Assembly (NCBI GenBank): GCA_018821305.1
Contig: JAHJMN010000021.1
Location: forward strand, 17,451-81,450
Reading direction: 5' to 3'
DNA from: Myxococcota bacterium
Lineage (GTDB): Bacteria; Myxococcota_A; Polyangia; HGW-17
Length of the DNA stretch: 64,000 bases
How positions within the stretch are numbered: the stretch's first letter is position 1; every line of letters begins with the position of its first letter. The translations under genes and the position numbers were made by a program. Below are positions 25,131-63,596 of this stretch, piece after piece. Below the pieces are notes generated by a model that was not told where the DNA came from, made no database searches, and saw nothing but the letters and a program-made list of their open reading frames with translations.

Positions 25131-25218
25131 CCCGCTTCATGAGTAAAAGGACGAAATCTCAAAAGTGAATATTTGACTCAATTTTTTGTAATTTTACATT
25201 GATATTAGATGTTTATGT

Positions 25219-36198: not shown

Positions 36199-36310
36199 TT
36201 ACTGATCCAAGCACGTAGATTATTGTGTTGAATATAACACAGTAACATAATAATCTTGTTGAATGATTTTGCACAGCCCTAATTTCCTCACTCTATTCTT
36301 TTGTAAAGTT

Positions 36311-41648: not shown

Positions 41649-41750
41649 ATTTCAGGTAACCAGAAAATCAGTAGCAGGAACAGGAAAACAGGGGCTCTTT
41701 CCTGAAGAATTTCTTTTAAACGAACAACAATCGTATTGCGGGATCTAATC
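41649..41750 (-). repeat. Family-2 repeat, partial unit in reverse orientation.
   Basis: TTTCAGGTAACCAGAAAATCAGTAGCAGGAACAGGAAAACAGGGGCTCTTTCCTGAAG…CAATCGTATTGCGG is the reverse complement of the unit core. It lies between the convergent sfsA and kbl genes. Confidence 0.7.
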
Positions 41751-42967: not shown

Positions 42968-43137
42968 TTAGTTCAGGACAGTAACTGTTTAGTTCGTGTC
43001 CGGAAATTCGATTCGCGAAGAATTTTGTTAAAAATTCTATCCGGCCACTACCAGTGAATTCAAGACATTGCGGTTACTGTCCTGAGTAAAAAATCGACAA
43101 AAAATTTAAAAACCGTATTTCAGGAAAGTAACTGGTT
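42968..43137 (-). mobile_element. Family-1 MITE-like element, copy E, in reverse orientation and diverged.
   Basis: The reverse complement reads …CAGTTACTTTCCTGAAATACGG…ACTCAGGACAGTAACCGCAATG…TTCGCGAATCGAATTTCCGGACACGAACTAAACAGTTACTGTCCTGAAC. Confidence 0.7.
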
Positions 43138-43715: not shown

Positions 43716-43862
43716 TCAGTCACTGTCCTGAAAATAAAGAAATCATATTTTTTAGCCGATTTTTGGCTCAGGACAGTGACCACAAGGTGTTCCATTTATT
43801 GTAGTGGCCTGTTAGGATTTTTAATAAAATCCTTCGTAAAGCGAATTACAGGGTACGTACTT
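43716..43862 (+). mobile_element. Family-1 MITE-like element, copy F.
   Basis: The stem is GTCACTGTCCTGA…TCAGGACAGTGAC, with a compensatory A>C / T>G change that preserves pairing. CCTGTTAGGATTTTTAATAAAATCCTTCGTAAAGCGAATTACAGG follows. Confidence 0.8.
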
Positions 43863-43967
43863 ATAATATTAAAAATCGGTTTCTTTGATACAACAATCTC
43901 TCTCAGGAGATGATCTCAAAACCAATTGACCCCGAAAGATACCTGATTTTTTACTTTTCAGGAATTA

Positions 43968-46139: not shown

Positions 46140-49100
46140 TCAGGCCATAAAATCCAGTAGGTTATTCTTTGCACTCTTCGTGCCAGTAGCTTTCCTGTTT
46201 GACTCCGCCTCTGTATTTTTACTGTTATTACTATCAGTTATGTCAATTTCATAAGTTTCATCATCACTGGTTGATGTCCGGTGATGTCTCTCAGAAGAAC
46301 TACCAAACTCAAAAGATAACAGGTTATGTCCTTGATTTTTTAACATCTTTTCAATATTAAGAGCATCGTTTTTAATCTGTTCGATTAAATTGGTATCCTT
46401 ACCGTCAATGTATATACGGATCCCATCATTTTCCTCGCGAACTCTGATTTCGGTCCCTTTATAGGTAACACGAATTTCTTTGCCATCTTCAGCACTTACA
46501 GCCTTTTCCATTATTTTTTCAATAACTTTTTCCGGTGCATCAGTCTTCTCAGGCGCCAAGGGAGGCTGGGCTTCTTTTATTTCCGGTGCAAATTTGAATT
46601 CCACCTTCTCATTATTAACTACAGTGACGATATCTTTATCTATTTTTGACTTCCCTTTTTGATAAGTAGTTGTATTTTCTGGTTTTATAGTGTTATTTTC
46701 AACATTATTGAGTCTCTCAGGGTTATCAAGAACATCAATATCTGTCAAACCGGACGAAAAAGACTCATAAGAAGGTGTCAAAATTTCCTTTTCTGAAACC
46801 GGGATTTTGACGTTTTTTGTTTGCAATTCAGGATTTCTAACAGGTGCAGATCTATCATCATAAGATCCAAAGGTTTTCCCTGTCGATTTTTCACCTTGAG
46901 TACTTGAAAATTTCGCTTCAATCTCTATTTCCTTTTCCATATCAAGAGTTTCTACTCGCTCAATCGTAGTATTATCTGCTGTCTTGAAATCATTATTCTT
47001 TTTGTTTTCAGTTTCCGCCATTATGGTAGTTTTTGTTTCGGTTTTCTGGTTGGCATCCGGTGTATTTCTATTATCCACCGCAACTTCGCTGCCTTTAATT
47101 GCTCTTGTATTTGCTTTGATATCAGTTTCAATCGGCGTCCTGACACCGTCATCAAAATCCTGGATTAACATTTCATCTATATAATCGTTACGTTTTCCAC
47201 TTGTTTCAAAAGACAGGTTTTCTATATGTTCATCTGAACCTGCCATCGTGGGATTGCTTACTGCTGTTTTCAGTCCGAAAAAGTCTTTTTGTACAGTAGC
47301 GGGCAATTCCTCAGAAGCAGCAACAGCATAATTTTGGGCTTCAGACATGGGATTACTTTTTTGAGTTACATCTGGAATGGAATCTAAACGCACCTGAGTT
47401 TCTGCTTTTTCCTTTTCCGTGGAAACATCAGTATCCTGGAAATTAACTACAGAATCATCGTTAACCTCTGGATTATAAAGCGAACTGGATTTCCCTTCTT
47501 TCGGCACTTCAGGTGATTCCTGGACTCTTGCGTATTCGGATCCTTGACTCGATTCAACTTTTCCAATTATTTCGTCTTCCACTGCCACTGCTGCATCTTC
47601 GTTTACAACATTTGTTTGTACTGCCGCTGTATTTGACTTATCAACTTCGTTGACAACTTCATTGTCCACTGCTGCTGGATTAAACTCTTCTACTTCACTG
47701 ACAACTTCATTGTCCACTGCTGCTGGATTAAACTCTTCTACTTCGTTGAGAACTTCATCGTCCACTGCTGCTGGATTAAACTCTTCAACTTCACTGACAA
47801 CTTCATCGTCCACTGCTGCTGAATTAAACTCTTCAACTTCACTGGCAACGTCAAATTCCAGAGGATATTCTTTACTTTCTATTTTTGAGTTAACCAGAAT
47901 CTCATCGAAAACTGTTTCTGTCATATCAGTAACATATGTATTTTCTTCGGGCTTTTGTTCTGAAACTGACTTATCCCTGACTACTTTTGCAGAAATTATC
48001 TCATCTGGCCCACTGACAACTTCCGATCCCTCAGAATATTCCATCCCTTTAATCCCTGATCCATCGAATTTTACTTGAAGCTCATCAAGACTTGCTTCCG
48101 TATCCTTAATAAATGATTTTTCTACGGGATTTGATTTTTGACTTAACTCATCTCCCACAACCTCCAGCCCACTTGATGATTGATTTAACTCATCGCCTTC
48201 ACCGACAACTTCAACTTTTGGTTCCACCTTTGCCGGAACTGACTCTTCTGGACCATGGCTAACTCCCGTTTCATCGGGAAAATCTGTTTCATTGAATCCA
48301 ATTTCGTCAAAATTTGATTGAAGTTCATCAAGACTTGCTTTCGTTTCCTTAACAAATGATTTTTCTACGGGATTTGATTTTTGACTTAACTCATCTACCA
48401 CAACCTCCAGCCCACTTGATGATTGATTTAACTCATCGCCTTCACCGACAACTTCAACTTTTGGTTCCACCTTTGCCGGAACTGACTCATCAGCCCCACT
48501 GATTATTTCCATTTCTTCTGGATAGTCCACACTCTTCATTACTTTTGCGTGAGAGTCTAAATCCCTGAGGAATTCTTTTCCTGAATCAACAGAGGATACG
48601 CTGACTTCTATCTCATTATTATTGAGATATTCCCTGTCGTGTGTTTCATTCATTTGATATTTTACAGGTTCTACAAAATCTGCATCGATCTCTCCATCCT
48701 CATTCTTACTGTCTGTAGTCTTTCCAACTTCCTCCTGAGAAACCATATAATTTTCAAACATGGGATCATCTTCTAAAAGCAGACTATTAAATTCACCTGT
48801 TTCCGTTGCGAATACTATTCGGCGCTTTTCTATTTTTCCAGTGTTATCATTTAAAGATTCAGTCAGAATACTATCCACTTCATCTTCTATTTCAATAAAC
48901 TGTCCTGTCTTATACTGTTTAGAAACGGATCCTGTTGATGTATTTATTTTATTCAGGAAATCTTTTTGTTCTTTATTTCTATTTGTTTTTTCATTTCCAC
49001 TGTTAATACTTGAAATTTCTTTTGTTTCATTCAGTTCTTCTTTTTCAGTTCCAGGCTCTAAAGCAATATCACTTCCTGCGATACTTCCGGACTTTTCCTT

Positions 49101-49949
49101 ACGCCCATCGTTTGATGGTAGAACAGTTAAAAATACTGGAAATTCCCCTGAATTACTTAATGGCAGGTCAACTTGATTATATTTTTCACTCGATTTTTTA
49201 TCTTTCAGCAAATCGTTTTTAACATCAACGAAATATACATCTGATTCATCTTCTCCATAGCTTTCAGAAATACTGAAACTTACCCCCTGCTCATCAACCA
49301 TTACCTTATCCGGCTTCTTACCTACATTAACAAAATTATCAAGTTGTGGAAATGCTTTTGATTGTACTTCACCCCGGAACATCGGCTTTTCCCCGGAAGA
49401 TTTTGGGAAAACACTTTCAGGGAATATTTTCTTAATCTTTTCTTTTCTCTTATCATTTTCAGTGTATTTTTTAATATCGTCCTCACTCAGGGTCAAGGCA
49501 GCACTTTTCTTTTCAACGCTTTGTTTGAAACTTGTGGATTCATCTCCTCCAAATCTAATGTGCCGTAAATCCGTCACCGCCCGGTCAAGGTTTTCTTCCT
49601 CCATTATATAATTCAGGAGAAGGAATTTTTCACCTGTTGTACTTTTTGTCCCTTTTTTACTATCATCTGTAGTCTCTGGACTATCAATCAGTTCTTTTTT
49701 CACATCACCGACTAATTTTGTTTTCGGAGGGGTTTCTTCCATCGGTTTGGTTTTCGGAGGGGTTATATCAACCGATTCTTTTTTTTCGAAAAATACTTCC
49801 ACATCATTCAGAATAGTACTGAAGTTGTCCTTCTGAAACATACTCAAACTGTATTTCTTCGGTTTCGGAGGCATTTCTTTATTGTTTTGAATCCCGTTAG
49901 TTTTCATGGCTTTACCGCTCTGAATTATAGGGTTTAAAAGGGGAAGCAT
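46140..49949 (-). CDS. fliK: Flagellar hook-length control protein FliK-like, unusually large (1269 aa), acidic, with internal tandem repeats. An alternative start lies at 49907.
   Basis: The C-terminal ~100 aa resemble the FliK C-terminal (Flg_hook) domain (…EIRVTYKGTEIRVREENDGIRIYIDGKDTNLIEQIKNDALNIEKMLKNQGHNLLSFEF…). The gene lies between flbB-like and flgD. Two ~80-aa tandem repeats and 5x EVEEFNPAAVDDEVV repeats are present. Confidence 0.65.
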   Translation of the reverse strand: MLPLLNPIIQSGKAMKTNGIQNNKEMPPKPKKYSLSMFQKDNFSTILNDVEVFFEKKESVDITPPKTKPMEETPPKTKLVGDVKKELIDSPETTDDSKKGTKSTTGEKFLLLNYIMEEENLDRAVTDLRHIRFGGDESTSFKQSVEKKSAALTLSEDDIKKYTENDKRKEKIKKIFPESVFPKSSGEKPMFRGEVQSKAFPQLDNFVNVGKKPDKVMVDEQGVSFSISESYGEDESDVYFVDVKNDLLKDKKSSEKYNQVDLPLSNSGEFPVFLTVLPSNDGRKEKSGSIAGSDIALEPGTEKEELNETKEISSINSGNEKTNRNKEQKDFLNKINTSTGSVSKQYKTGQFIEIEDEVDSILTESLNDNTGKIEKRRIVFATETGEFNSLLLEDDPMFENYMVSQEEVGKTTDSKNEDGEIDADFVEPVKYQMNETHDREYLNNNEIEVSVSSVDSGKEFLRDLDSHAKVMKSVDYPEEMEIISGADESVPAKVEPKVEVVGEGDELNQSSSGLEVVVDELSQKSNPVEKSFVKETKASLDELQSNFDEIGFNETDFPDETGVSHGPEESVPAKVEPKVEVVGEGDELNQSSSGLEVVGDELSQKSNPVEKSFIKDTEASLDELQVKFDGSGIKGMEYSEGSEVVSGPDEIISAKVVRDKSVSEQKPEENTYVTDMTETVFDEILVNSKIESKEYPLEFDVASEVEEFNSAAVDDEVVSEVEEFNPAAVDDEVLNEVEEFNPAAVDNEVVSEVEEFNPAAVDNEVVNEVDKSNTAAVQTNVVNEDAAVAVEDEIIGKVESSQGSEYARVQESPEVPKEGKSSSLYNPEVNDDSVVNFQDTDVSTEKEKAETQVRLDSIPDVTQKSNPMSEAQNYAVAASEELPATVQKDFFGLKTAVSNPTMAGSDEHIENLSFETSGKRNDYIDEMLIQDFDDGVRTPIETDIKANTRAIKGSEVAVDNRNTPDANQKTETKTTIMAETENKKNNDFKTADNTTIERVETLDMEKEIEIEAKFSSTQGEKSTGKTFGSYDDRSAPVRNPELQTKNVKIPVSEKEILTPSYESFSSGLTDIDVLDNPERLNNVENNTIKPENTTTYQKGKSKIDKDIVTVVNNEKVEFKFAPEIKEAQPPLAPEKTDAPEKVIEKIMEKAVSAEDGKEIRVTYKGTEIRVREENDGIRIYIDGKDTNLIEQIKNDALNIEKMLKNQGHNLLSFEFGSSSERHHRTSTSDDETYEIDITDSNNSKNTEAESNRKATGTKSAKNNLLDFMA

Positions 49950-53481: not shown

Positions 53482-53672
53482 TCCATTCGTGTCTTTATTT
53501 TCAGGACATTAACTAGTCCGTGTCCTGAAAATCAATTTTTATCAAAATTGAGCATGTTTAGGAAAACATGCTATTCAGAACACTATAATAATTTCAAAGT
53601 CTTCATTCTTAATATCCTGGGTAAAAATTTGGTGCAAAATTTAAAAGATCGCATTACAGGACATTAACTATA
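53482..53672 (+). mobile_element. Family-1 MITE-like element, copy G (diverged), located between fliG and fliH.
   Basis: …TTCAGGACATTAACTAGTCCGTGTCCTGAAAATCAATTTTT…GCATTACAGGACATTAACTATA shares the terminal motifs with the other copies. The internal region has diverged. Confidence 0.6.
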
Positions 53673-54687
53673 CAAAATCTTCTCCCCCGTGACCCGCAAC
53701 CTGAATTTTGCCTTCTGCTTCAAGACGCATTGCAATTTCCACAATTTCCTGCTGGGCCTGTTCGACAACACTGAGTCGCTGAGGAGGTAGAATATCAAGA
53801 TCATCCATAATCATGGCAGCGGCACGTTTGGATAGAGCACCAAGGATCTTGTCCCTGAGCTCATCAGAAGAACCTTTGAGAGCCATAAGTAACTGATCAT
53901 TTGTAACTTCCTTAAGAAGAGTCTGGAATCCACGGCCATCAATTCCCGTGAGATCTTCAAATGTAAACATTGCCCTTCGAATGCGGCTGACTGCTTCTGG
54001 GTTATCTTCTTCCAGTTCTTTAAGGAGCTCATCACCAATTTCAAAATCAAGATGCTTAACAACTTCCGCTGTAAGAGAGATACCGTCCATATCAAGAGCA
54101 TCGATATCCCCAATACACTCAAGTTCCCGCCTGAGTACATGTTCAATGTCGTTCATCGCCTGTCTTGGAATTGATTCAAGCGTGGCCATACGTTTTAAAA
54201 TCCGGATCTGGGCTTCATGGGGGAATAATTCAAGCGTGGCCGCTGCCAAAGAGGCGTCCGTCTGAGCCAGGATTACTGCAACGGTTTGAGGACTCTCATC
54301 CAGTAATACGTTTGCTACTATATTTGGATCAAGGGATGACAATTTCTGGAGAGCGGTAAGAGGAGTACGGTTTTTCATGCCAAAGACATCCTCTATCACA
54401 TCCTCTCCTTTAACTTTGCCGACAATCTTTCGGAGGTATTCATCACCACCTCTTAAAGACATGATCTCCCCTCGAGCCAGTTTCTGGAAATCTTCATAGA
54501 CCAACTGGAAATGAGTTGGTCCAATTTCATCCATTTTTTGGATTTGATCACTTACTCGTCGGATTTCATGAGGATCCAGTCTCGCGAAAATCGGCATCGC
54601 CAATTCTTCGGGCAAGCTTAAAAGGAATATTGTCGCTTTTTCAATGTTATTGAGATTGAACTGTTCGGTTTTTGACGCTTCAGCCAT
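53668..54687 (-). CDS. fliG: Flagellar motor switch protein FliG.
   Basis: The protein shows full-length FliG similarity, including …RRAMFTFEDLTGIDGRGFQTLLKEV… (MFxFEDL motif). Confidence 0.9.
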   Translation of the reverse strand: MAEASKTEQFNLNNIEKATIFLLSLPEELAMPIFARLDPHEIRRVSDQIQKMDEIGPTHFQLVYEDFQKLARGEIMSLRGGDEYLRKIVGKVKGEDVIEDVFGMKNRTPLTALQKLSSLDPNIVANVLLDESPQTVAVILAQTDASLAAATLELFPHEAQIRILKRMATLESIPRQAMNDIEHVLRRELECIGDIDALDMDGISLTAEVVKHLDFEIGDELLKELEEDNPEAVSRIRRAMFTFEDLTGIDGRGFQTLLKEVTNDQLLMALKGSSDELRDKILGALSKRAAAMIMDDLDILPPQRLSVVEQAQQEIVEIAMRLEAEGKIQVAGHGGEDFV

Positions 54688-54979
54688 AGCATTAATCTCC
54701 CCGCCGGTATATTTGCAATGACTATGCCGTCCACTTTAATCCCACATGATTCGTCATGTACTGTGTTTCACTACATAAATTCAAGTACTTACGCAGGCCG
54801 CATTCATCTTCATAATTCCGAATTTACACTTTTGCCGTCGGTTTTATGGCACTTACTGCCAGAAATCCCGTTTTTCGGGGGGTATCCTTCTCAATAAAAA
54901 AACCTGAAAAATCACGTTTATGACAGAGACTTCTTGAATCTGGCAAAAATTACAATAAAATAGATCCGGAGATTCAATC

Positions 54980-55747
54980 ATGAAAACACTTCTCATAGTT
55001 TCAACTCTTTTCTCATTGTTCTTTTCTACTAACGCTTCTGCCCAGCAGCCATGTGGCACCATAGTTACAGGACATGGTCCTATAGGTGTGGCAGTTTCAG
55101 TTCCTTGCCCACCGCCGCCCCCGCGAGTTGTAATTGTAAGAAGGCGGCCAGTACGACGTTATATTGACCCGGCACCGGCACCAGCACCGGTGGCTCCCGT
55201 TGATGTCAGTGGACTTGACATTACTGATGTAAACCGCTGGACCGTAGGAATCATGTTTGATTCTACCAGTTCCGACAAGGGCGGACTTGCCGGCTCCATG
55301 GTTTTCGGTCGGTTTCTTTTCCTGGAAAACCTGAGTTTCGAACTGGGTTTTGCGGGGCTCACCTCCTGCACCAATTGCAACGAACTCGCTTCACGTAAGG
55401 ATTCCAGAGTTCATACCTCCGTCAACTGGTACTGGGATCGAATCAAGCACAGCGGCTTTAACCCCTTCCTTAAGGGTGGCTTTGTATTTTCCAATATTAC
55501 TATGTACAATGACGTAAATGGAAGTTCCGCAACTACATCAGTTACCGCAGTGGAACTTGGCGGTGGACTTGAATGGAGAATCATCCCCTGGCTCAGCCTT
55601 GAAATTCAGGCTACATTAATGACCAATAACAACGCCACAGATAAAACTGACGATTATGCCCCAATTAACGATGCCCATACAAAAGGTATCCCGCCAGTCG
55701 GGGCAAATGGTATCAATATCCGTTTTGGGCTTAATGTAAACTTCTAA
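54980..55747 (+). CDS. Outer-membrane beta-barrel protein.
   Basis: A signal peptide is present. Amphipathic beta-strands alternate along the sequence, and a C-terminal aromatic residue is present (…GLNVNF). A Pro/Ala-rich linker is present. GC content is above the window baseline. Confidence 0.55.
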   Translation: MKTLLIVSTLFSLFFSTNASAQQPCGTIVTGHGPIGVAVSVPCPPPPPRVVIVRRRPVRRYIDPAPAPAPVAPVDVSGLDITDVNRWTVGIMFDSTSSDKGGLAGSMVFGRFLFLENLSFELGFAGLTSCTNCNELASRKDSRVHTSVNWYWDRIKHSGFNPFLKGGFVFSNITMYNDVNGSSATTSVTAVELGGGLEWRIIPWLSLEIQATLMTNNNATDKTDDYAPINDAHTKGIPPVGANGINIRFGLNVNF

Positions 55748-55783
55748 TCACTTTTAAAACAATTTAAAACCGGGACTCAAAGG

Positions 55784-56737
55784 ATGATTTCAATGAAAAA
55801 ACTATTCCTGACTCTGATCTTTTTAACGGTATTTACCGGTTGCGACGATGATAACTCTAACAATAGCAACAATACGAACAGCAACAATACTAATAACAGT
55901 AATAATTCCACAAATAACACCAATAATGTCAATCCTTGTGATGGAGTCAACTGTTCCGGTCATGGACAATGTGTCGTCAGCGGTTCTGCAGCCTCCTGTG
56001 ATTGTGATGAAGGCTGGGTTCCATCGGGATTAACCTGCGTTGAAGCTCAGGATCCGTGTACAGGCATAGATTGCTCAGGTCATGGGGATTGTTCATCAAC
56101 GAACGGCACAACACCTATCTGTACTTGTGACAACGGTTATGTAAATGCTGGCACCGGTGGTCTTGAATGCATCGAAGAATCCAATGACTGCACTGGCGTA
56201 ACCTGCTCAAATCATGGAACCTGCGTAATTCAGTCTGATGGTCCAGTTTGCGCCTGTGAAAATGGTTATACTCCATCCGCTTCTCATGGTCTTGATTGTG
56301 TTCCCGTGGATCAGGTTTGTATCGGAGGGGCTATCGACTATGATTTTGATAATGATGGCACCAATGATACATGGTTTGAACCGAACTCTGATGAGTGCCT
56401 GCAGTATGAAATTCTGAACAGAACCCGGGCAACCCATGATGACGAAGGAACCCCGGAGTGCCATAAACCCCTCATGTGGAATGTTTTGTGGGCTGCACAC
56501 GGCCGTAATCACTCAATCCGCATGGCAAATCAGGGAAGCCTGTTCCATGACGATTACCCATCAGGTCAGAACTGCGCATACGGCTGCGGTCCCGATTGCG
56601 AGATGAACATGTATATGACCGGAGAAGGCGAAGATCACTGCCCTCCCCTTTCTCATCACTGCAATATAATGCGCTGCAGTTTCACCCAGGTAGGAATCGG
56701 CTACAGCGGCACCTGGAACACCCAAAACTTCCTTTAA
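55784..56737 (+). CDS. Lipoprotein with an Asn-rich linker, four EGF-like Cys-rich modules and a C-terminal CAP/SCP/PR-1-like domain.
   Basis: The lipobox is VFTGC, followed by NSNNSNNTNSNN…. The EGF-like modules repeat C-x-G-x-x-C-S-x-H-G-x-C. The C-terminal CAP-like motifs are …HCNIMRCSFTQVGIGYSGTWNTQNF (HYTQVVW-like). Confidence 0.6.
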   Translation: MISMKKLFLTLIFLTVFTGCDDDNSNNSNNTNSNNTNNSNNSTNNTNNVNPCDGVNCSGHGQCVVSGSAASCDCDEGWVPSGLTCVEAQDPCTGIDCSGHGDCSSTNGTTPICTCDNGYVNAGTGGLECIEESNDCTGVTCSNHGTCVIQSDGPVCACENGYTPSASHGLDCVPVDQVCIGGAIDYDFDNDGTNDTWFEPNSDECLQYEILNRTRATHDDEGTPECHKPLMWNVLWAAHGRNHSIRMANQGSLFHDDYPSGQNCAYGCGPDCEMNMYMTGEGEDHCPPLSHHCNIMRCSFTQVGIGYSGTWNTQNFL

Positions 56738-56942
56738 CAAACCCACCCGGGTATTCCGAAATTCCTTGCCTTTCCGATTTCCAGTGTTTGAAAATCCTGT
56801 CATTTATAGAACTACGAAAAGTTTTTTAAAGCGTCGAGGGAAAAGAATGAAGCGACAAAAACATTCTGTGGGGCAGCGGAATAACAAAATGGGGATGTGA
56901 ATTATTTTTGTCATACCGAAAATTTGCAGCGGCGCCCGCGTT

Positions 56943-57412
56943 ATACCGCTTTCGAGGTAATACGATAGTAACTTAATTTAAAGAAAAGCTTCAGGAGAAA
57001 GACCCTGATTTTGCCTTGCATTCCGCTGCGCGAAATTGCTTGCCTGTTTCTGCTACTGAATTCCTGAATACCTGAAATTTTAAACAGAGACTCAGGTAGT
57101 CAGGCAAACAGGTTCAGGAACAGGGCGTAAATATTCAATATCAAATAATAATTAAAAGGAACATAATTTTTAATTCAATTTCCCAATTTCGTTCCTTTTA
57201 CTCCGCAAGCGGTCTAATACGATTGTTACTTAATTCAAAGAAAGCCTTCAGGAGAACGACCCTGATTTTGCCTTGCATTCCGCTGCGCGAAATTGCTTGC
57301 CTGTTACTGCTACTGATTTCCTGTTGCCTGATTTTTTTACAGGTAATCAGAAAGTCAGGAAATCAGGTTCAGGAACAGGGCGTAAATATTCAATATCAAA
57401 TAATAATTAAGT
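56943..57412 (+). repeat. Family-2 structured repeat as two tandem units (~56943-57215 and 57216-57412).
   Basis: Unit 1 ends CCGCAAGCGGTCT and abuts AATACGATTG of unit 2. It is >85% identical to 28646-28966. Confidence 0.75.
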
Positions 57413-57415
57413 GGT

Positions 57416-58588
57416 CTATTCGATTACAGAGTTTGAGACTTGAGGATCGCCGTTGGCCAGGACGAAAATTCCGGGGTATCCCTGAGTTTCAAAGCCATCG
57501 GAAGGATTGCGCTGGAGGGTACTGTTTTCGATGACAAGATGACCAGACCGGTCGTTGGAAACGAAGAAAATGGCACCGCCACCTTCGTTTGCGTGATTGT
57601 CGGTGATTCTTGTGCCGCAGATGCGAAGAGTAAAAGTGTTTCCGTCGTTATAAATGGCTCCACCGCTACCGCCCCCGGGAGTTCCGGACTGGGCAGGGTT
57701 TGCACCGTTTCCGATGGCGCGGTTGTGAGTGAAAAGGCTGTTGATTACGTAGTACGAAACACCAATTGAACTGAGGCCACCGCCGTTGGAGCAGTAATTG
57801 CCCAAATCCTCCCGACCACCGAATGTAGAATTTACAACGTAGACAGGTGCATCTTCAAATTGATCGAAAACCCGAATGGCAGCGCCACCGACATCGGGCC
57901 CTGTTTCGTCACACTGGTTTGTGAAAAACCGGCTGTTTATGACCTTAAACCGACCACCTCTGACAAAGATGGCTCCTCCGCCGTCGGGATCATGCTCCCC
58001 GGTGGAGTTACCGTTAATAAACGTAAGATTCTGCACCGTGAGCCGCGGATGATCCTGATCGTTGCAATGGGGCGTCGTCCAAACCTGATCCTGATCGCAG
58101 GTGTTCATGTAGAGGATTCGGCGAGCACCGTCGCCATTGAGAGTAACCATATTTCCGCCATCGATGACGATTTCCGGCCCGGTATTGTTGAATATCTTCG
58201 CCGTTTCGGTAAGGGTAATGATAACGGGCTCGGGTCCGCAGTTGAAGGTGATAATGCCACCGGCAGCGACGGCAGCGACAAATGCTTCTGATGTACAACT
58301 CTCCGCCGTTCCGTCACCCACAACTATCGTCGGATTAGATGTATCCTCGAGGGCGGCATCGTCGGGAATGGAACAGTTGCCATCAGGATTTCCCGTGGGG
58401 GGAAGCTCCGCCAGATGTTCATTGATTGCGCAGAATGTTCCGCCCCAGTAACCTCCAGCAGCTGTGCAATCTCCGTCAGTTACGCAGAGATTAAGGTAAT
58501 CAGCACTGCAAACGGCCTTTTTCCCGCCGCCGCCGGAGCTGCAGGCGGAAAAAATACCCACAATAGATAAAAATAAAAGCTTTTTCAT
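57416..58588 (-). CDS. Lipoprotein with a right-handed beta-helix carrying Pmp-type GGAI/FxxN repeats.
   Basis: The lipobox is IFSAC. Repeated GGGAIF/GGAAIR/GGSGGAIY/EGGGAIFF and FINGN/FFTNQ/FTHNR/ITDNH motifs are present. The region is GC-rich (~50+%). Confidence 0.6.
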   Translation of the reverse strand: MKKLLFLSIVGIFSACSSGGGGKKAVCSADYLNLCVTDGDCTAAGGYWGGTFCAINEHLAELPPTGNPDGNCSIPDDAALEDTSNPTIVVGDGTAESCTSEAFVAAVAAGGIITFNCGPEPVIITLTETAKIFNNTGPEIVIDGGNMVTLNGDGARRILYMNTCDQDQVWTTPHCNDQDHPRLTVQNLTFINGNSTGEHDPDGGGAIFVRGGRFKVINSRFFTNQCDETGPDVGGAAIRVFDQFEDAPVYVVNSTFGGREDLGNYCSNGGGLSSIGVSYYVINSLFTHNRAIGNGANPAQSGTPGGGSGGAIYNDGNTFTLRICGTRITDNHANEGGGAIFFVSNDRSGHLVIENSTLQRNPSDGFETQGYPGIFVLANGDPQVSNSVIE

Positions 58589-58627
58589 TTTCTCCTCCCT
58601 TTCAGAGAATCAGTCCGCCAAGAAAAC

Positions 58628-60232
58628 CTATTTTGTCTTAAATACTTCATCACGACAGGTATTTCCTGTGCACTTTATTTTAACAAGACCGATATCCGTT
58701 GCAAGGAAAACATTTGAGTTTTTTGTTATATGAATATCATTAATGTTTTCCGCATCCGTCAGGTACATCTCTGTCTTGCTTCTGTTTTTATCGAGAAAAT
58801 AAACAACGGGGCCCGATGTGGCAAACCACAATCGTCCTGTCCGTGGATCTTTCCCCACAACCCTGGTTTTCGGTGGTGCATGGGGTGCCTTTTTGAAAAT
58901 ATTCTGTTTTGCATCCAGCCGATAAAGATCCATCCATGTGGTTACAAAAATATCGTCTCCGGGGAGAATGAAAAAATTGAAAAATGAATATACTCTCGAA
59001 TCTCCAAGGCCTCGTCTGTTTGAAGAGCAACCAAAACACGTAGTATTGCCATTTGCTTCCTCTAAAGTCAGAGAGTTAAGAGAAAGCCGCCAGAGACCCA
59101 GGGCATTTTTAATAATCCGACGGATTTTGGAATCTTCCATTTCACGTATTTCTACAAAAAGATTTTTCTTTTCATAAAATTCCCATCTTCTCTTTGCGGC
59201 AAAGAGGAAGAATTTACCTGCGGTATCCTCATAAAAACCGCAATTGTCACCATAAGACCTTTTGTTATTAAGCTCGTTGAATGTACGGCATCTTTTGACC
59301 CCGCGCCAGACCACACAGTGTCTCTTGTTGGTGGCAATTTCCTTCATGGAAAGGGTTTTCCACTTTCCGTTATAGACTTCCACCCGACCAAGGCGATAAA
59401 TATACAGGGCATTTTTCCGGACAAAACCGGAGCGGATGAGGTTTTTTGAAAATTTACGGGGTTTGCCGGAAGGAGGTCTGATGACCACGCCAGCTTCGGT
59501 AATCAGAGCAAGCTCACTACCGTAAGGAATGATTGCTTTTACATTGTTCCACTTTTTATAAGGATCATATTTTTTAAATTCTGGACAGTACTTGCGATAC
59601 AGGTGGATATACCTCATCATTTCTATGACGGCGGCATTTTTCATGTTTCTTTTGGATGAGGGAATGAGAATCATAAGTTTCTGTACCGGCCTGTAGACAC
59701 CGCAAAAGTCGCGACTCATTACCTTCTGCCCTTCAATGAGAGCAGCTATAAGACCCACGGCAAAATCGTTCGGTGCTTTCTTTACTGCTTCTTTTGCAAC
59801 TGCATCGGGGGTCATCCCTGAAATTCCAACGGCCTTTGGATTGATTGCACTTAATTTCTGATAATCCATCACAGCGCTCATCCAGGCATAAATCGCAAGA
59901 TCCTCAGCGGAAAGTATATCCACGGTTAATCCTTTTATTTCCACAGGAAACTTGATGATCAAAGCTGCGATAAGAGCCCGTGTATTTCTTTTCCCATGCC
60001 GATTATTCCAGCCGAGCTTTGTAATAAAGGCTATCTTCTTTTCCAGTGGAATACGTGAAAACAAAAGCCACTTAGCTTGCTGAGAGTTAATGAGAGTCCG
60101 ATTTCCCACTACAACAATTTCCGGATCATTGTAATGACGGTGAAATTCGATGGATGTGAGGGGAGAATCAGCTCTGGCGGGAGTTGAGAATATAATGATG
60201 GTGGAAACGACAAAACAAAATGCAAACTTCAT
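58628..60232 (-). CDS. Hypothetical secreted basic protein, 534 aa.
   Basis: A signal peptide is present (MKFAFCFVVSTIIIFSTPARA). No recognisable domain is present. Confidence 0.5.
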   Translation of the reverse strand: MKFAFCFVVSTIIIFSTPARADSPLTSIEFHRHYNDPEIVVVGNRTLINSQQAKWLLFSRIPLEKKIAFITKLGWNNRHGKRNTRALIAALIIKFPVEIKGLTVDILSAEDLAIYAWMSAVMDYQKLSAINPKAVGISGMTPDAVAKEAVKKAPNDFAVGLIAALIEGQKVMSRDFCGVYRPVQKLMILIPSSKRNMKNAAVIEMMRYIHLYRKYCPEFKKYDPYKKWNNVKAIIPYGSELALITEAGVVIRPPSGKPRKFSKNLIRSGFVRKNALYIYRLGRVEVYNGKWKTLSMKEIATNKRHCVVWRGVKRCRTFNELNNKRSYGDNCGFYEDTAGKFFLFAAKRRWEFYEKKNLFVEIREMEDSKIRRIIKNALGLWRLSLNSLTLEEANGNTTCFGCSSNRRGLGDSRVYSFFNFFILPGDDIFVTTWMDLYRLDAKQNIFKKAPHAPPKTRVVGKDPRTGRLWFATSGPVVYFLDKNRSKTEMYLTDAENINDIHITKNSNVFLATDIGLVKIKCTGNTCRDEVFKTK

Positions 60233-60487
60233 TGATACAACCCTTTAAAAATGTGACTGCTGGTCATTTTTTATCTTATTTCATTAATCTCCTGAAATAC
60301 AGTTTTTTCGATTTTCCCACAGCTTTTTGCTTAACTTTCGTTGATCAGAATTATGGTGGTATTTGAAATGCTTTCTTCGCGATGCGCAATAAATGTGTGA
60401 ATTTTTTTTCACTCCCATTTTTTTTTCTTTCTGATAGTTACTATAATCCGACAGTGCATAAAGCACAATTAACTCAAGGAGGAACTT

Positions 60488-60997
60488 ATGTTTAAAAAAA
60501 TCTTTATTACTTGCGCAATAGCAGTACCTTTCTTCTTAGTAGGTTGCGACGATGATTCAACTAGAAATAGTTGCCAGAAACTGGGGGACAAAGCTGATTC
60601 ATGTGGATTACTTTCAGAAGGAATATACGACTGCAGTGATTTCGTAGAAAATGCTCAGACAAAATGTGAAATGAACTGTCTGAGTTCATTGACTTGCACT
60701 GAAATTGAAAACGCATTCTGTGATTGGAATTTTACTCAAGACTTTCAAAATTGCGTAGCCTCATGTCCGGAGGTTACCTGGGAATGTACAGATGGAGAAG
60801 AAGTAGGTTACGATGACCGATGTGATGGTTATGTAGACTGTGAAGATGGCTCTGACGAAGTTGGCTGTCCAGTGTTTTCTTGCGATAGCGGAGAAACAAT
60901 TGATGCAAATTTCGAATGTGATGGCGAAGATGATTGCTCTGATGGATCCGACGAAGTTGGCTGTCCAGATGTTGCTCAACTAATTTGCTCAGAATAA
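60488..60997 (+). CDS. Small Cys-rich lipoprotein with two LDL-receptor class A-like modules.
   Basis: The lipobox is FLVGC. CDGYVDCEDGSDEVGC and CDGEDDCSDGSDEVGC match the LDLa C-x-D-x-x-D-C-x-D-G-S-D-E signature. A strong AAGGAGG RBS is present. Confidence 0.6.
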   Translation: MFKKIFITCAIAVPFFLVGCDDDSTRNSCQKLGDKADSCGLLSEGIYDCSDFVENAQTKCEMNCLSSLTCTEIENAFCDWNFTQDFQNCVASCPEVTWECTDGEEVGYDDRCDGYVDCEDGSDEVGCPVFSCDSGETIDANFECDGEDDCSDGSDEVGCPDVAQLICSE

Positions 60998-61192
60998 TAG
61001 CAATTGCCCTATCCTGATCTTCTCCGTTTTTATAATTCACTTCTCTCGTTATTTTTTCTCCTTTAAAATTATTCATTGCTTTTCCAAAGGGAGTAAAAGT
61101 GACTCTCTGGCATTACGCAATAATAAATCCGGTGTGTTTTTTTTCCGCTGTGGTAAAAGGGCTCCGGCGTCCTGCCATGCACTGGATACTTC

Positions 61193-62407
61193 ATGTTTCA
61201 ACTTACGTCTTCAGAAAAAAAACTGTTTCTTTTCAACCTTCTGATTTTCTTTCTAAACGGCCTGGCTTTCGGTGTTTTCATGAACTCCGATGTTATTGCG
61301 CGCCGGGTTTTAGGAGCATCGACTTTTACCGTCACGTTCATGCTTTTTCTCACTAACGGCGTTTTAATCACTTCCCTGCCCATGGTAAGTCTTATGGGGC
61401 GTGGACGCCGTCGTTTAAAATTTCTTATTCGGGCTGCGATGGTCTGCTCTATCCCTGTCATGATGCTTTATTTTCATGAAAGCATTGCTTTTTTCGTGTT
61501 TGCAGTTTTTCTCGTATACATTCTTAATACAATTCTGCCTCCGGCTTTGAACCTGCTTTTCAAGCGCAATTATCGACGGGAAGTTACGGGAAAACTTTAC
61601 GGTGTAGCCACTTCACTTAGAATGATTGCTACCATGACCGGGGCCTTGATTACAGGCAAACTCCTCGATATATCCGAGGCTTACCATATTCCGCTTTTTG
61701 CCGCTGCTGGGTTCATGACCATGGGAAGCGTAATTATTACGGCTTTTCTGAATTACGGGGAAACTGAGGAGGAGAAGGCCGACAACTCCCATGTTTCCAT
61801 CAGACAGTCGTTAAAAAACATGAACCGTATCATAGCTGAGGATCGTGTATTTTACCGTTTTGAGCGTAACTACATTATATATGGCCTTGCATTTCTGCTC
61901 TTACTTCCAGTCATCCCAGTTTATTTCGTTGATGCCCTCAAACTTGATTACACAACAATTTCGACATCCCGTCAGGTGGTTGGTCTTGCGGGACTCATGC
62001 TTCTTTCCCCCATTGCTGGATACATTTTCGACCGTTACAACACATTTCATTTTACAGGATTAATGTTTCTGATTCTCACCATGTACCCGCTTTTCCTGGG
62101 TATTTCGGGATTTGTCCCCGGGGATTTAAAAGTTTATATGGTTTATGCCGGCTATGCCATTTATTCCATAGCCATGACGGGAATCCAAATTTCCTGGAAT
62201 ATCGGAACCATAAGGCTTGCCACACTAGCTGACTCGGATATTTATCAAGGGATTCATATTACACTGACGGGTTTGCGAAGTCTTTTTGGTCCCCTGCTGG
62301 GGTTTTTACTCATGAAGTTTTTCGGGTATCAGGCGGCATTTGCTACGGCCTTCGGTTTGTTTTTAACGGCGGGCATTCTGATGCTCCGGGAAAAAGAAGG
62401 TTCGTGA
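61193..62407 (+). CDS. MFS-type transporter.
   Basis: Approximately 12 predicted TM helices are present, with MFS loop motifs (…GRGRRRLKF…). Confidence 0.7.
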   Translation: MFQLTSSEKKLFLFNLLIFFLNGLAFGVFMNSDVIARRVLGASTFTVTFMLFLTNGVLITSLPMVSLMGRGRRRLKFLIRAAMVCSIPVMMLYFHESIAFFVFAVFLVYILNTILPPALNLLFKRNYRREVTGKLYGVATSLRMIATMTGALITGKLLDISEAYHIPLFAAAGFMTMGSVIITAFLNYGETEEEKADNSHVSIRQSLKNMNRIIAEDRVFYRFERNYIIYGLAFLLLLPVIPVYFVDALKLDYTTISTSRQVVGLAGLMLLSPIAGYIFDRYNTFHFTGLMFLILTMYPLFLGISGFVPGDLKVYMVYAGYAIYSIAMTGIQISWNIGTIRLATLADSDIYQGIHITLTGLRSLFGPLLGFLLMKFFGYQAAFATAFGLFLTAGILMLREKEGS

Positions 62408-62459: not shown

Positions 62460-62532
62460 GCGGGATTAACTCAGTTGGTAGAGTGTCAGCTTCCCAAGCT
62501 GGATGTCGCGGGTTCGAATCCCGTATCCCGCT
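62460..62532 (+). tRNA. tRNA-Gly (anticodon CCC).
   Basis: The 73-nt sequence GCGGGAT/ATCCCGC folds as a cloverleaf: acceptor stem, D arm ACTC…GAGT, anticodon loop TTCCCAA, and T arm GCGGGTTCGAATCCCGT. No CCA is encoded. Confidence 0.85.
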
Positions 62533-62604
62533 CTAAAAATATACAAAGTATAACTTCTTTTGCGAAGCAAATATGCAGAGCCTGCTCCCCTGTTTCCAGT
62601 TGGA

Positions 62605-63420
62605 TTATTTCTTGTCCCCGTAGATTTCCGAGGTTTTGCGGAAGGATGCCAGAATTCCCTGAATCATCGCACTGGAAAAACCCTGATGTTCCATAACGTT
62701 GAGCCCTGTAATAGTACTTCCCCGGGGAGTGGTAACCTTATCAATTTCCGTTTCCGGGTGGTTGTCACTGGATGTGAGTAAAGCGGCAGCTCCTTTTGCC
62801 ACCTGCGCTGCAATGGGAATAGCCTGCTCCGGATGAAACCCGATTTCGATACCACCCTGAGAAGCCGCCCGGATGGCCCGCAGGAAAAAGGCTGTCCCAC
62901 AAGCACAGAGCACTGTTGCAGGAACCATCATGGGCTCCGGAAGAATTATGGTTTCTCCGATGAACCCGAAAAGCTCCAGGGCATCATCCACTGCTACGGT
63001 CGGGGCATGATCGTGAGCAATACAGGTCATACTCTCACATATAGCACTTGCGGTATTGGGCATGATGCGTACAACAGGAACATCGCAGGCAAGTCTTTCA
63101 CAAATAGTGGCGCAACTGACACCGGAAACAACGGAAAATATCGTATGTTTCTCAGGCTTTATGTGCTCTCTGATTTGCTCAAGAAAATCGTTCATCTGCT
63201 GGGGTGTAACAGCAATAATAATGATATCAGCCCACGAAACTCCGCTGGCGTTATCGTTTGATACGAAAAACCCCATCTTAGTAAGCCTGTTTATAGTGTT
63301 TTCACTTCTGGCGGTAAGTTTGAGATTCTCTTCTTTGATCATACCGCTTTTGCGAAAGCCTTTTGCCATGGCGGTTCCAATGTTTCCACAACCTGCAATT
63401 AATATCTTTTTTCCGTTCAT
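62605..63420 (-). CDS. proC: Pyrroline-5-carboxylate reductase ProC.
   Basis: MNGKKILIAGCGNIGTAMAKG… carries a Rossmann GxGxxG motif. The C-terminus …VTTPRGSTITGLNVMEHQGF… matches the P5CR dimerisation domain. Confidence 0.85.
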   Translation of the reverse strand: MNGKKILIAGCGNIGTAMAKGFRKSGMIKEENLKLTARSENTINRLTKMGFFVSNDNASGVSWADIIIIAVTPQQMNDFLEQIREHIKPEKHTIFSVVSGVSCATICERLACDVPVVRIMPNTASAICESMTCIAHDHAPTVAVDDALELFGFIGETIILPEPMMVPATVLCACGTAFFLRAIRAASQGGIEIGFHPEQAIPIAAQVAKGAAALLTSSDNHPETEIDKVTTPRGSTITGLNVMEHQGFSSAMIQGILASFRKTSEIYGDKK

Positions 63421-63596
63421 TTGGTCCTCACTTTTGCGCGCCCTTGTACCACAAAAATCAACGGGGAGAAAGAAGGAAGCGAAAAAAGCATCTGTAACCA
63501 TTTTTTCATTTTATACTCATTCTTAATTCAAAAATCCCCGGTATCTAGTGTCTCCGAAAGGGGAAGAAAACCTTCCCCGAATAAAGGAGGATTATA

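What the first reader, a model, noticed from the sequence alone, without database searches (positions are those of the whole stretch)
54980..60997. GC-elevated island encoding secreted proteins with eukaryote-like extracellular modules
The region is ~45-55% GC, against a ~37-40% background. It encodes in succession: an OM beta-barrel protein with a Pro/Ala-rich linker; a lipoprotein with four EGF-like Cys modules plus a CAP/SCP/PR-1-like domain; a lipoprotein beta-helix with Chlamydia-Pmp-type GGAI/FxxN repeats; a 534-aa basic secreted protein of unknown fold; and a small lipoprotein with two LDL-receptor class A modules. A Family-2 tandem repeat lies in its middle (56943-57412). EGF, CAP and LDLa modules are uncommon in bacteria and are typically associated with host, prey or surface adhesion. 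The compositional shift suggests horizontal acquisition.
Basis: partly seen in the sequence, partly recalled or inferred. Interest (0 to 1): 0.6.

Follow-up and report, generated by a model that had tools for sequence, protein, structure and literature searches.

The report
Secreted-protein gene neighbourhood, not an island
Five adjacent genes for exported cell-surface proteins in an uncultured low-GC, flagellated myxobacterium really carry EGF, CAP and LDL-receptor-type modules, but they are a patchwork of long-resident chromosomal genes and not a recently imported island; one of them belongs to a remarkably conserved, unstudied beta-helix family.

Summary
The five ORFs exist at the stated coordinates and all have export signals. 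Tools confirm three EGF modules (not four), two LDLa modules, a divergent CAP domain and GGAI/FxxN beta-helix motifs. The "unknown fold" protein is an all-alpha domain plus a 7-bladed Reg_prop-like propeller.

The GC claim is overstated: 44.7% against 39.8%, and only one gene exceeds 50%. The rise is not bounded by the region. MFS, proC and about 6 kb of housekeeping genes to the right have the same GC and GC3. The tetranucleotide signature is ordinary. No integrase, att site or phage-family match was found.

The block splits into parts with separate histories:
- The OMP and EGF/CAP pair is conserved as a pair in the sister species, at another locus.
- BH390, U534 and MFS are contiguous in a relative, with equal dS (0.87-1.05).
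- LDLa169 lies on an 875-bp indel.
- The central repeat is a local duplication of a repeat dispersed through this genome.

BH390's high GC follows from an extremely constrained protein sequence; across 61 loci its GC3 tracks host GC (r=0.95).

Verdict: annotation largely right, single-island horizontal transfer not supported. It is an ordinary region, with one interesting by-product, the beta-helix family.

The parts
53668..54687 (-). fliG, the left flank. It is the first gene of a fliG-fliH-fliI-fliJ…flgD-flgE operon. In this genome the usual upstream neighbour fliF is missing.
   Evidence: 92% identical to FliG of the sister species. fliF lies directly upstream in 21 of 24 related loci but not here. 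The fliG-OMP255 junction is reproduced at 100% identity in two independent contigs.
54980..55747 (+). OMP255: Sec signal, Cys/Pro-rich N-terminal segment (aa 22-75), then a probable small OmpA-like outer-membrane beta-barrel ending in …NVNF.
   Evidence: Pfam OMP_b-brl E 5.6e-4 and OmpA_membrane E 7.8e-3, both below cut-off. No PDB sequence relative. A 64% homologue lies directly upstream of the EGF/CAP homologue in the sister species.
55784..56737 (+). EGF317: lipoprotein with an Asn/Ser-rich linker, three EGF modules (aa 52-172) and a divergent Cys-rich CAP/SCP domain (aa ~176-317).
   Evidence: EGF_2 E 7.6e-10 with 3 stretches. A family profile hits selectin and Notch EGF domains in the PDB. 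5 of 27 family members hit PF00188, best E 3.3e-7. BLASTP to a Pfam-positive Sandaracinus CAP protein gives E 5e-5 over 133 aa. Some relatives are named 'CAP domain-containing' by NCBI.
56942..57155 (.). Family-2 dispersed repeat, copy 1.
   Evidence: The same family occurs at 28726-28967, 25128-25371(-) and 41652-41737(-).
57199..57410 (.). Family-2 repeat, copy 2. It is a local tandem duplicate of copy 1 (89% identical) and shares a ~32-nt insertion that the other copies lack. It contains a ~35-bp CCTG/CAGG hairpin.
   Evidence: fold z-scores -4 to -6. Other assemblies break here, at window 56974, 57358, 57381 and 57391.
57416..58588 (-). BH390: lipoprotein with a short Cys-rich N-terminal segment and a 328-aa right-handed beta-helix domain (aa 63-390) carrying 3 GGAI and 3 FxxN motifs. 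It belongs to a very large, extremely conserved family with no curated model.
   Evidence: More than 8000 relatives; the best 120 are 66-94% identical. Median pairwise identity is 76% among 14 diverse members. AF2 model pLDDT 80, beta-helix. Best PDB fold match is Rhombotarget A, prob .97-.98, E .011. No Pfam, NCBIfam or PDB sequence family.
58628..60232 (-). U534: secreted basic protein. It has an all-alpha N-terminal domain (aa ~22-225, an unnamed family) and a C-terminal 7-bladed beta-propeller of the Reg_prop type.
   Evidence: AF2 pLDDT 88. Foldseek matches the BT4663, BT4673 and PorZ propellers at E 2e-9, prob 1.0. 350 representative relatives, many of them the N-domain alone. Reg_prop hits in relatives.
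60252..61126 (.). 875-bp segment present here but absent between MFS and U534 in the related genome L119. It is an indel that carries LDLa169 and its upstream region.
   Evidence: blastn of L119 against the window: L119 1-1369 matches 62496-61127 and L119 1424-4252 matches 60251-57416.
60488..60997 (+). LDLa169: small acidic lipoprotein with a Cys-rich N-terminal half and two shortened LDL-receptor class A modules (aa ~93-127 and 132-159). Both keep the D-C-x-D-G-S-D-E calcium-cage motif.
   Evidence: Ldl_recept_a E 3.4e-12. Aligns to LRP2 and LDLR repeats. GC3 .284, the lowest in the window.
61193..62407 (+). MFS404 transporter, the right flank. It is syntenic with U534 and BH390 in the relative.
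   Evidence: MFS_1 E 4e-18. 95.5% identical in L119. A 49% homologue lies next to an EGF/CAP homologue in L028.
62460..62533 (+). tRNA-Gly(CCC). It shows no sign of being an integration site.
   Evidence: the 3' end occurs once in the window.
62605..63501 (-). proC, a housekeeping gene with the same raised GC (47.5%) and GC3 (.470) as the 'island'.
   Evidence: TIGR00112 E 2.4e-59; composition.

Best explanation
The region is a mosaic stretch of native chromosome in an uncultured, low-GC, flagellated Myxococcota bacterium. Five genes for exported envelope proteins happen to lie side by side there. It is not one imported island.

It has at least three parts with separate histories:
- **Part A.** OMP255 and EGF317 are probably co-transcribed (36-nt gap). 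The pair was inherited from the ancestor shared with the sister species. A rearrangement that split fliF from fliG placed it next to fliG.
- **Part B.** BH390 and U534 have stayed linked to MFS404 and tRNA-Gly since the split from a related species.
- **Part C.** LDLa169 sits on an 875-bp indel.

Parts A and B are joined across a locally duplicated copy of one of this genome's own dispersed hairpin repeats.

The GC excess has two ordinary causes. First, the encoded proteins are rich in Gly, Ala, Pro, Cys, Thr and Ser, which raises second-position GC. This matters most for BH390, whose near-invariant sequence pins GC1+2 at about 0.5. Second, a regional rise in third-position GC also covers the housekeeping genes to the right.

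Function is inferred, not shown. All five products are exported to the envelope or cell surface:
- a small beta-barrel anchor;
- a lipoprotein displaying three EGF modules and a CAP domain;
- a lipoprotein beta-helix that is probably an enzyme or binder for a substrate common to many bacteria;
- a secreted propeller protein that resembles the glycan-sensing periplasmic domains of Bacteroides hybrid two-component systems;
- a calcium-binding LDLa lipoprotein.

They most likely act as independent binding or processing proteins and not as one machine.
For: **Organism.** FliG relatives are Myxococcota and Deltaproteobacteria MAGs. The proteins are annotated 'Myxococcota bacterium'.

**Composition.** Region 44.7% GC against 39.8%. 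Background GC3 is .358±.040. MFS is .463 and proC .470, and the genes to the right of the window are .375-.476 at 44-48% GC. Six-kb windows starting at 61.5-62.5 kb are as GC-rich as the region, and the tetranucleotide delta* is within range. Region GC2 is .449 against .363.

**Part A.** The sister-species contig L027 has OMP (64%) and EGF/CAP (59%) adjacent in the same order. Their GC3 there is .37/.36, against .30-.38 in the neighbouring genes.

**Part B.** L119 carries MFS-U534-BH contiguously. dS is 1.05, 0.87 and 0.88 and dN/dS is .025-.09.

**Part C.** Window 60252-61126 has no counterpart in L119.

**Repeats.** Both repeat families occur on both sides of the region. The two central copies share a private insertion.

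**BH390.** GC3 correlates with flanking GC at r=.95 over 61 loci. The fit predicts .45 at 40% flanking GC and .52 at the local 44.5%, against .538 observed. GC1+2 is at least .49 in every member.

**No mobility genes or att site**.

**Domains.**
Against: - Only about 70 kb of this genome was available, so the genome-wide GC3 distribution is unknown. The 'regional step' could itself be a larger old acquisition that includes housekeeping genes.
- BH390 GC3 (.538) is the highest in the window, +4.5 sd.
- No homologue of BH390, U534 or LDLa169 was seen in the roughly 35 kb available from the sister species. Absence from that genome could not be tested.
- The BH family spans several phyla, which needs either great age or some horizontal spread.
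- The EGF317-repeat-BH390 join is bridged in only one of three assemblies.
Confidence: 0.75

Rival explanations
1. A single genomic island was acquired horizontally from a higher-GC donor and inserted upstream of fliG.
For: GC is 5 points above the rest of the window. Synteny with the sister species ends exactly at the fliG 5' end. A tRNA-Gly lies nearby.
Against: - The GC rise continues into MFS, proC, TatD and PMT_2.
- LDLa169 is below background.
- The tetranucleotide signature is typical.
- There is no integrase, att site or phage-family match.
- The parts have separate histories in relatives.
- The genome's own repeats sit inside the region.
Confidence: 0.04
2. Piecemeal horizontal transfer. 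Individual genes were each imported at different times into a native neighbourhood. The candidates are LDLa169 (recent) and perhaps BH390 (ancient, before the split from the L119 lineage).
For: LDLa169 lies on an 875-bp segment absent from the relative and has deviant, low GC3 of .284. BH390 has the highest GC3 and belongs to a family found in Myxococcota, Desulfobacterota, Bacteroidota and SLH-anchored forms.
Against: - The indel could equally be a deletion in the relative.
- No direct repeats or mobility genes flank it.
- BH390's dS equals that of its neighbours.
- Its GC3 fits the family-wide host-GC relation.
- The top named relatives are Myxococcota.
- The family is almost absent from plasmids, 2 of 72,556 records.
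Confidence: 0.25
3. The five genes form one functional, co-regulated adhesion or predation module.
For: All five products are exported. Calcium-binding EGF and LDLa modules, the CAP domain and the beta-helix are typical of adhesins. In Sandaracinus a CAP gene directly precedes the BH homologue.
Against: - The genes lie on both strands in at least three transcription units.
- Only the pairs OMP-EGF and U534-BH recur, and only in close relatives.
- CAP occurs within 4 kb of BH in just 2 of 83 loci (directly adjacent only in Sandaracinus), and no U534, LDLa or OMP homologue does.
- More distant U534, BH and EGF/CAP homologues have unrelated neighbours.
Confidence: 0.08
4. The juxtaposition is a repeat-mediated assembly chimera that joins two unlinked loci at the Family-2 repeat.
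For: NCBI and Logan contigs all end inside the repeat, at window 56974, 57358, 57381 and 57391. The repeat has five or more copies in 64 kb.
Against: - NCBI contig L121 runs from fliG through copy 1 and into copy 2 up to 57358.
- L001 starts at 57391, so only about 30 nt is unbridged. Everything else is 100% identical to the window.
- The two copies share a private insertion, as expected of a real local duplication.
- Both repeat families occur on both sides.
Confidence: 0.05

Closest known systems
Bacterial CAP/SCP (PF00188, YkwD-like) secreted proteins, here fused to EGF-like modules as in many Myxococcota lipoproteins
   Same: The C-terminal ~140 aa align with a Pfam-positive CAP protein, including the conserved His and Glu positions. 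Several family members reach PF00188. NCBI names some relatives 'CAP domain-containing'.
   Different: The domain is very Cys-rich (9 Cys) and too divergent for the Pfam model to detect in this protein. It is preceded by three EGF modules and a lipobox. The fold was not modelled.
Chlamydial polymorphic membrane proteins (Pmp; PF02415 repeats) and Rhombotarget A of Acinetobacter (PDB 9cdu/9cdv)
   Same: Right-handed beta-helix whose coils carry GGA[ILV] and FxxN motifs.
   Different: BH390 has no autotransporter barrel and no GlyGly-CTERM, and is lipid-anchored instead. It has a single compact 328-aa domain. Pmps are polymorphic, whereas this family is about 76% identical across phyla. The fold match is weak (TM .33, E .011).
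Periplasmic Reg_prop beta-propeller sensor domains of Bacteroides hybrid two-component systems (BT4663, BT4673) and PorZ
   Same: The U534 C-terminal 300 aa are predicted as a 7-bladed propeller. These structures are its best matches (E 2e-9), and relatives hit Pfam Reg_prop.
   Different: U534 has one propeller, not two. It has no transmembrane or kinase part. It carries a novel all-alpha N-terminal domain that also exists as a stand-alone secreted protein.
LDL-receptor class A modules (PF00057)
   Same: Two tandem modules carry the acidic calcium-cage motif C-D-G-x-x-D-C-x-D-G-S-D-E. The HMM score is significant and PDB alignments support it.
   Different: The modules are shortened, with 5 and 4 Cys instead of 6. 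They sit in a 169-aa bacterial lipoprotein.
Genomic islands (tRNA-associated, integrase-bearing, compositionally distinct)
   Same: A local GC rise, a break of synteny and a nearby tRNA.
   Different: There are no mobility genes, no att duplication and no distinct oligonucleotide signature. The GC rise is not bounded by the region, and the parts have separate vertical histories.

Membership tests
Horizontally acquired genomic island | Composition (GC, GC3, oligonucleotide signature) distinct from the host and bounded at the island edges | tested here: not met
   GC and GC3 stay raised in MFS, proC and about 6 kb beyond. LDLa169 inside the region is below background. Tetranucleotide delta* is .146-.162, within the window range of .115-.179. 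Only about 70 kb of the genome was available.
Horizontally acquired genomic island | Mobility signatures: integrase or transposase, flanking direct repeats or a tRNA att site | tested here: not met
   All ORFs of 80 aa or more are accounted for. None of the five proteins matches a PHROGs family. The tRNA-Gly 3' end occurs once.
Horizontally acquired genomic island | Present or absent as one block relative to close relatives | tested here: not met
   The OMP+EGF pair lies elsewhere in the sister species. MFS-U534-BH lie together in L119 with equal dS. LDLa169 is a separate indel.
EGF-like domain (PF07974/PF00008) | HMM score above the curated cut-off and a six-cysteine pattern | tested here: met
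   EGF_2 39.4 bits against a cut-off of 22.1, in 3 stretches. There are three 6-Cys modules at aa 52-85, 92-129 and 136-172.
CAP/SCP/PR-1 superfamily (PF00188) | Significant match to the CAP profile | tested here: inconclusive
   No hit for this protein at E<=0.1. 5 of 27 family members hit PF00188, best E 3.3e-7. Pairwise BLASTP to a PF00188-positive protein gives E 5e-5.
CAP/SCP/PR-1 superfamily (PF00188) | Alpha-beta-alpha sandwich fold with the conserved His/Glu cavity | not tested
LDL-receptor class A (PF00057) | HMM score above the cut-off and the acidic calcium-binding motif | tested here: met
   46.8 bits against 24.1, in 2 stretches. D-C-x-D-G-S-D-E is present in both modules. PDB alignments to LRP2 support it. 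Cys count per module is 5 and 4, not 6.
Chlamydial Pmp family | Repeated GGA[ILV] and FxxN motifs on a beta-helix | tested here: met
   3 GGAI (0 of 2000 shuffles reach three) and 3 FxxN. Predicted beta-helix. The Pfam repeat score is below its cut-off for this protein (E .074), but several relatives carry a precomputed PF02415 hit.
Chlamydial Pmp family | Type V autotransporter architecture with a C-terminal beta-barrel | tested here: not met
   The protein ends with the helix (…SNSVIE). Its N-terminus is a lipobox. The model shows no barrel.
OmpA-like / OMP_b-brl outer-membrane barrel | Profile match, signal peptide, C-terminal aromatic residue | tested here: inconclusive
   OMP_b-brl 20.6 bits against a cut-off of 28.7, and OmpA_membrane 16.4 against 21. 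The signal peptide and C-terminal Phe are present. There is no PDB relative.
Reg_prop beta-propeller | Seven-bladed propeller similar to HTCS periplasmic domains | tested here: met
   AF2 pLDDT 88 with about 28 strands. Foldseek to 4a2l, 3ott and 5m11 gives E 2e-9 to 1e-8. Relative P0211 hits Reg_prop at 24.3 bits against a cut-off of 20.4.

The most novel reading that the evidence does not exclude
BH390 represents an unrecognised, near-universally constrained extracellular beta-helix domain.
- It is about 328 aa long. Median identity is about 76% between members from Myxococcota, Desulfobacterota and SLH-anchored or otherwise anchored forms.
- More than 8000 90%-identity clusters match it.
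- Each gene has adapted to its host's GC, from 41 to 76%.
- It has no Pfam or NCBIfam model, no solved relative and no conserved gene neighbourhood.

Conservation of this degree in a secreted lipoprotein would imply an enzyme or receptor acting on an invariant, widespread substrate. Its function would be new.
Probability: 0.45. Interest if true: 0.6.

Novelty: new member of a known kind. Interest (0 to 1): 0.3.

Why it matters
As posed, the finding matters little. Clusters of exported proteins with EGF, CAP, LDLa and beta-helix modules are common in Myxococcota, and the horizontal-transfer reading fails.

Two general lessons follow:
- A local GC rise can come from protein-sequence constraint plus a regional GC3 trend. 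It should be checked against the flanking housekeeping genes and against relatives before an island is called.
- The region exposes two uncharacterised families worth experimental attention: the extremely conserved beta-helix domain, and the all-alpha 'ADSPLTS' secreted domain. It also shows a broken fliF|fliG junction and dense genome-specific hairpin repeats that fragment assemblies of this lineage.

Tried and rejected
- **CAP-BH functional pairing.** It was suggested by Sandaracinus, where a CAP gene sits 12 bp upstream of the BH homologue. It was rejected because CAP lies within 4 kb of BH in only 2 of 83 loci, and directly adjacent only in Sandaracinus.
- **Conserved neighbours of BH.** TypA/BipA is adjacent in 16 of 83 loci. 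This probably reflects one clade's synteny, and nothing is general. Naive ORF clustering in high-GC loci was polluted by spurious frames.
- **U534 as an orphan.** The word-indexed search found only 3 relatives. The exhaustive search found 350, so it is not an orphan.
- **Plasmid or phage carriage.** BH occurs in 2 of 72,556 plasmid records. None of the five proteins matches a PHROGs family.
- **tRNA-Gly as an integration site.** No duplicate of its 3' end exists. My first guessed pattern was wrong; the correct one occurs once.
- **Rfam for the repeats.** Only the tRNA was found.
- **Literature.** Searches for EGF+CAP in myxobacteria and for PF02415 outside Chlamydia found nothing relevant.

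Full report
**Observation**

The window has 40.3% GC. The flagged stretch, 54980-60997, has 44.7% against 39.8% for the rest. One-kb windows from 55 to 59 kb are 46-47%. Only one gene, BH390, exceeds 50% (52.3%). So '45-55% against 37-40%' is overstated.

The five ORFs are at the stated coordinates. Read directly from the sequence, each starts with an export signal. OMP255 and U534 have Sec-type signals. EGF317, BH390 and LDLa169 have lipoboxes (FTGC, FSAC, LVGC).

**Domain calls**

- **EGF317.** Pfam confirms EGF (EGF_2 E 7.6e-10, three stretches). The cysteine map shows three six-Cys modules, not four.
- **LDLa169.** Pfam confirms LDLa (E 3.4e-12, two stretches). Residues 91-161 align with tandem LDLa repeats of LRP2 and LDLR. 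The two modules keep the acidic calcium cage but have only 5 and 4 Cys.
- **CAP.** Pfam does not detect it in EGF317. The support is indirect. 5 of 27 aligned family members reach PF00188, best E 3.3e-7. The C-terminal 133 residues align with a Pfam-positive CAP protein of Sandaracinus at E 5e-5. NCBI names several relatives 'CAP domain-containing'. It is therefore a divergent, Cys-rich CAP domain. The fold was not modelled.
- **BH390.** It has three GGAI and three FxxN motifs. AlphaFold2 predicts a right-handed beta-helix, pLDDT 80. The nearest solved fold is Rhombotarget A, and only weakly. It has no autotransporter barrel, so it is not a Pmp.
- **OMP255.** It reaches only sub-threshold OMP_b-brl and OmpA_membrane scores. 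It does have a signal peptide and a C-terminal Phe.
- **U534.** The 'unknown fold' is predicted at pLDDT 88 as an all-alpha domain (aa ~22-225) followed by a seven-bladed propeller. The best structural matches are the Reg_prop periplasmic sensor domains of Bacteroides hybrid two-component systems and PorZ, at E 2e-9. An exhaustive HMMER search finds 350 representative relatives. Many consist of the N-terminal domain alone. None has a Pfam or NCBIfam name.

**Organism and surroundings**

FliG relatives are Myxococcota and Deltaproteobacteria MAGs. The closest is a Zodletone-spring MAG, at 92%. The window's proteins are annotated 'Myxococcota bacterium'. Anaerobic, flagellated, lower-GC Myxococcota from that habitat have been described (bioRxiv 10.1101/2021.07.06.451402).

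To the left lies a flagellar operon: fliG-fliH-fliI-fliJ-…-flgD-flgE. To the right lie an MFS transporter, tRNA-Gly and proC.

**Is it a compositional island?**

No.
- Background GC3 is .358±.040. The five genes have .443, .454, .538, .416 and .284.
- The flanking MFS (.463) and proC (.470) are just as high.
- So are most of the next six genes beyond the window end, recovered from NCBI contig L001: five have GC3 .42-.464 and one has .375, all at 44-48% GC.
- Six-kb windows starting at 61.5-62.5 kb are as GC-rich as the region.
- The strand-symmetric tetranucleotide distance of the region (.146-.162) lies inside the range of all windows (.115-.179).
- Second-position GC is .449 against .363, which reflects the amino-acid make-up of these secreted proteins.
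- There is no integrase or transposase ORF. None of the five proteins matches a PHROGs family. The tRNA 3' end is not duplicated.

**Is it one unit in evolution?**

No.

*Left edge.* In the sister species, flgB-flgC-fliE-fliF lie directly upstream of fliG. fliF is upstream of fliG in 21 of 24 related loci. In the window, synteny stops exactly at the fliG start. That is a real feature of this genome. Two independent contigs (L120, L121) carry fliG-OMP255-EGF317 at 100% identity.

*Part A.* The sister species has the OMP (64%) and EGF/CAP (59%) homologues adjacent, in the same order, on a different contig with unrelated neighbours. Their GC3 there (.37/.36) is close to that of their neighbours (.30-.38). 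The pair is therefore inherited, and it was moved by rearrangement. The EGF/CAP family has 84 relatives; all but one of those named by a source are Myxococcota or Deltaproteobacteria.

*Part B.* A related organism (L119, about 84% DNA identity) has MFS-U534-BH contiguous. dS is 1.05, 0.87 and 0.88 and dN/dS is .025-.09. These three genes have therefore co-diverged at this locus.

*Part C.* The 875 bp at 60252-61126, which carry LDLa169, have no counterpart in L119. This is an insertion here or a loss there. It is the only part with a plausible recent horizontal origin, and its GC3 is low, not high.

**The central repeat**

It consists of two copies, 89% identical, with a shared ~32-nt insertion. 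They belong to a ~215-nt hairpin repeat that also occurs at 25.1, 28.7 and 41.7 kb. A second family of about 150 nt occurs at six or more sites in the window and again to the right of it.

All other assemblies break inside the central repeat, which leaves about 30 nt unbridged. A chimeric join is therefore unlikely but not excluded.

**BH390**

This is the gene that contributes most to the GC signal, and it turned out to be the most interesting item.
- All 8000 scored candidates were significant. The best 120 are 66-94% identical.
- Fourteen diverse members have a median pairwise identity of 76% over 328 residues, with 149 invariant columns. They include Sandaracinus, Polyangium, Persicimonas, a Nannocystaceae isolate, Megalodesulfovibrio gigas, SLH-anchored forms and forms with C-terminal repeats.
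- For comparison, FliI is about 50% and FliG about 40% identical between the window and Nannocystaceae.
- The gene's GC3 follows the GC of its host's flanking DNA, r=.95 over 61 loci with flanks of 41-76% GC. These are therefore long-resident genes under strong purifying selection, not recent transfers.
- The fit predicts GC3 of .45 at 40% flanking GC and .52 at the local 44.5%, against .538 observed.
- GC1+2 never falls below .49. That alone lifts this gene about 10 points above a 40% genome.
- The family is almost absent from plasmids.
- It has no conserved neighbourhood.
- It has no curated model or solved relative.

**Function (inferred)**

The products are an outer-membrane barrel, three lipoproteins and one secreted protein. 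Their modules typically bind calcium, glycans or other surface ligands. No evidence links the five into one system.

**Verdict**

The annotation is largely right. The single-island horizontal-transfer interpretation is not supported. The region is an ordinary mosaic of resident envelope-protein genes at a rearrangement breakpoint. The by-products worth following are the BH family, the U534 N-terminal domain family, the fliF|fliG break and the dense hairpin repeats.

Noticed in passing
window 3198-3357, 24980-25130, 32326-32622 (tandem), 42990-43133(-), 43718-43864; fragments at 53495-53535 and 53650-53672; L001 279-423: Family-1 dispersed intergenic repeat, about 150 nt, 80-95% identical. There are at least seven copies in about 70 kb. 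It has no Rfam match and was not seen in the sister-species loci held.
   Followed up: partly
window 25128-25371(-), 28726-28967, 41652-41737(-), 56942-57155, 57199-57410: Family-2 dispersed repeat, about 215 nt, with a ~35-bp imperfect hairpin built of CCTG/CAGG units (fold z-scores -4 to -6). Three other public contigs of this organism end inside the copies next to BH390, so the repeat fragments assemblies.
   Followed up: partly
window 54688-54979 (upstream of fliG); L003 7015-9943: The flagellar flgB-flgC-fliE-fliF | fliG junction is broken in this genome. It is intact in 21 of 24 related loci, including the 92%-FliG sister species. fliG now starts its operon next to a divergent OMP gene. 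L004, the next-closest relative, also lacks fliF upstream. The fliF of this organism was not located.
   Followed up: partly
window 57416-58588(-) and loci L032-L116: The BH390 beta-helix domain family is about 76% identical across phyla. It is attached to lipobox, SLH or C-terminal repeat anchors. Its GC3 tracks host GC (r=.95). It has no curated family or solved structure.
   Followed up: yes
window 58628-60232(-), aa 22-225; proteins P0209-P0357: The unnamed all-alpha secreted domain has a nearly invariant mature N-terminus, A-DSPLTS. It is often a stand-alone protein of 200-230 aa and is sometimes fused to a propeller or to ankyrin repeats.
   Followed up: partly
window 46140-49949(-): A 1269-aa ORF inside the flagellar operon, between an MgtE_N-like gene and flgD. 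It carries 48-nt x4.9 and 243-nt x2 in-frame tandem repeats and has no Pfam hit. Its position suggests a very long FliK-like hook-length protein.
   Followed up: no
L028 7935-10981: In an unrelated metagenome contig, a 49% homologue of MFS404 lies about 850 bp upstream of a 59% homologue of EGF317. This hints at an older MFS-EGF/CAP linkage.
   Followed up: no
L032 7501-9083 (Sandaracinus amylolyticus): A 162-aa CAP-domain gene lies 12 bp upstream of the BH homologue on the same strand. The pairing is not general: CAP lies within 4 kb of BH in 2 of 83 loci.
   Followed up: yes
window 36263-37195(+): A 310-aa ORF with 5.5% Cys and the lowest GC in the window (33.8%). It has no Pfam hit.
   Followed up: no
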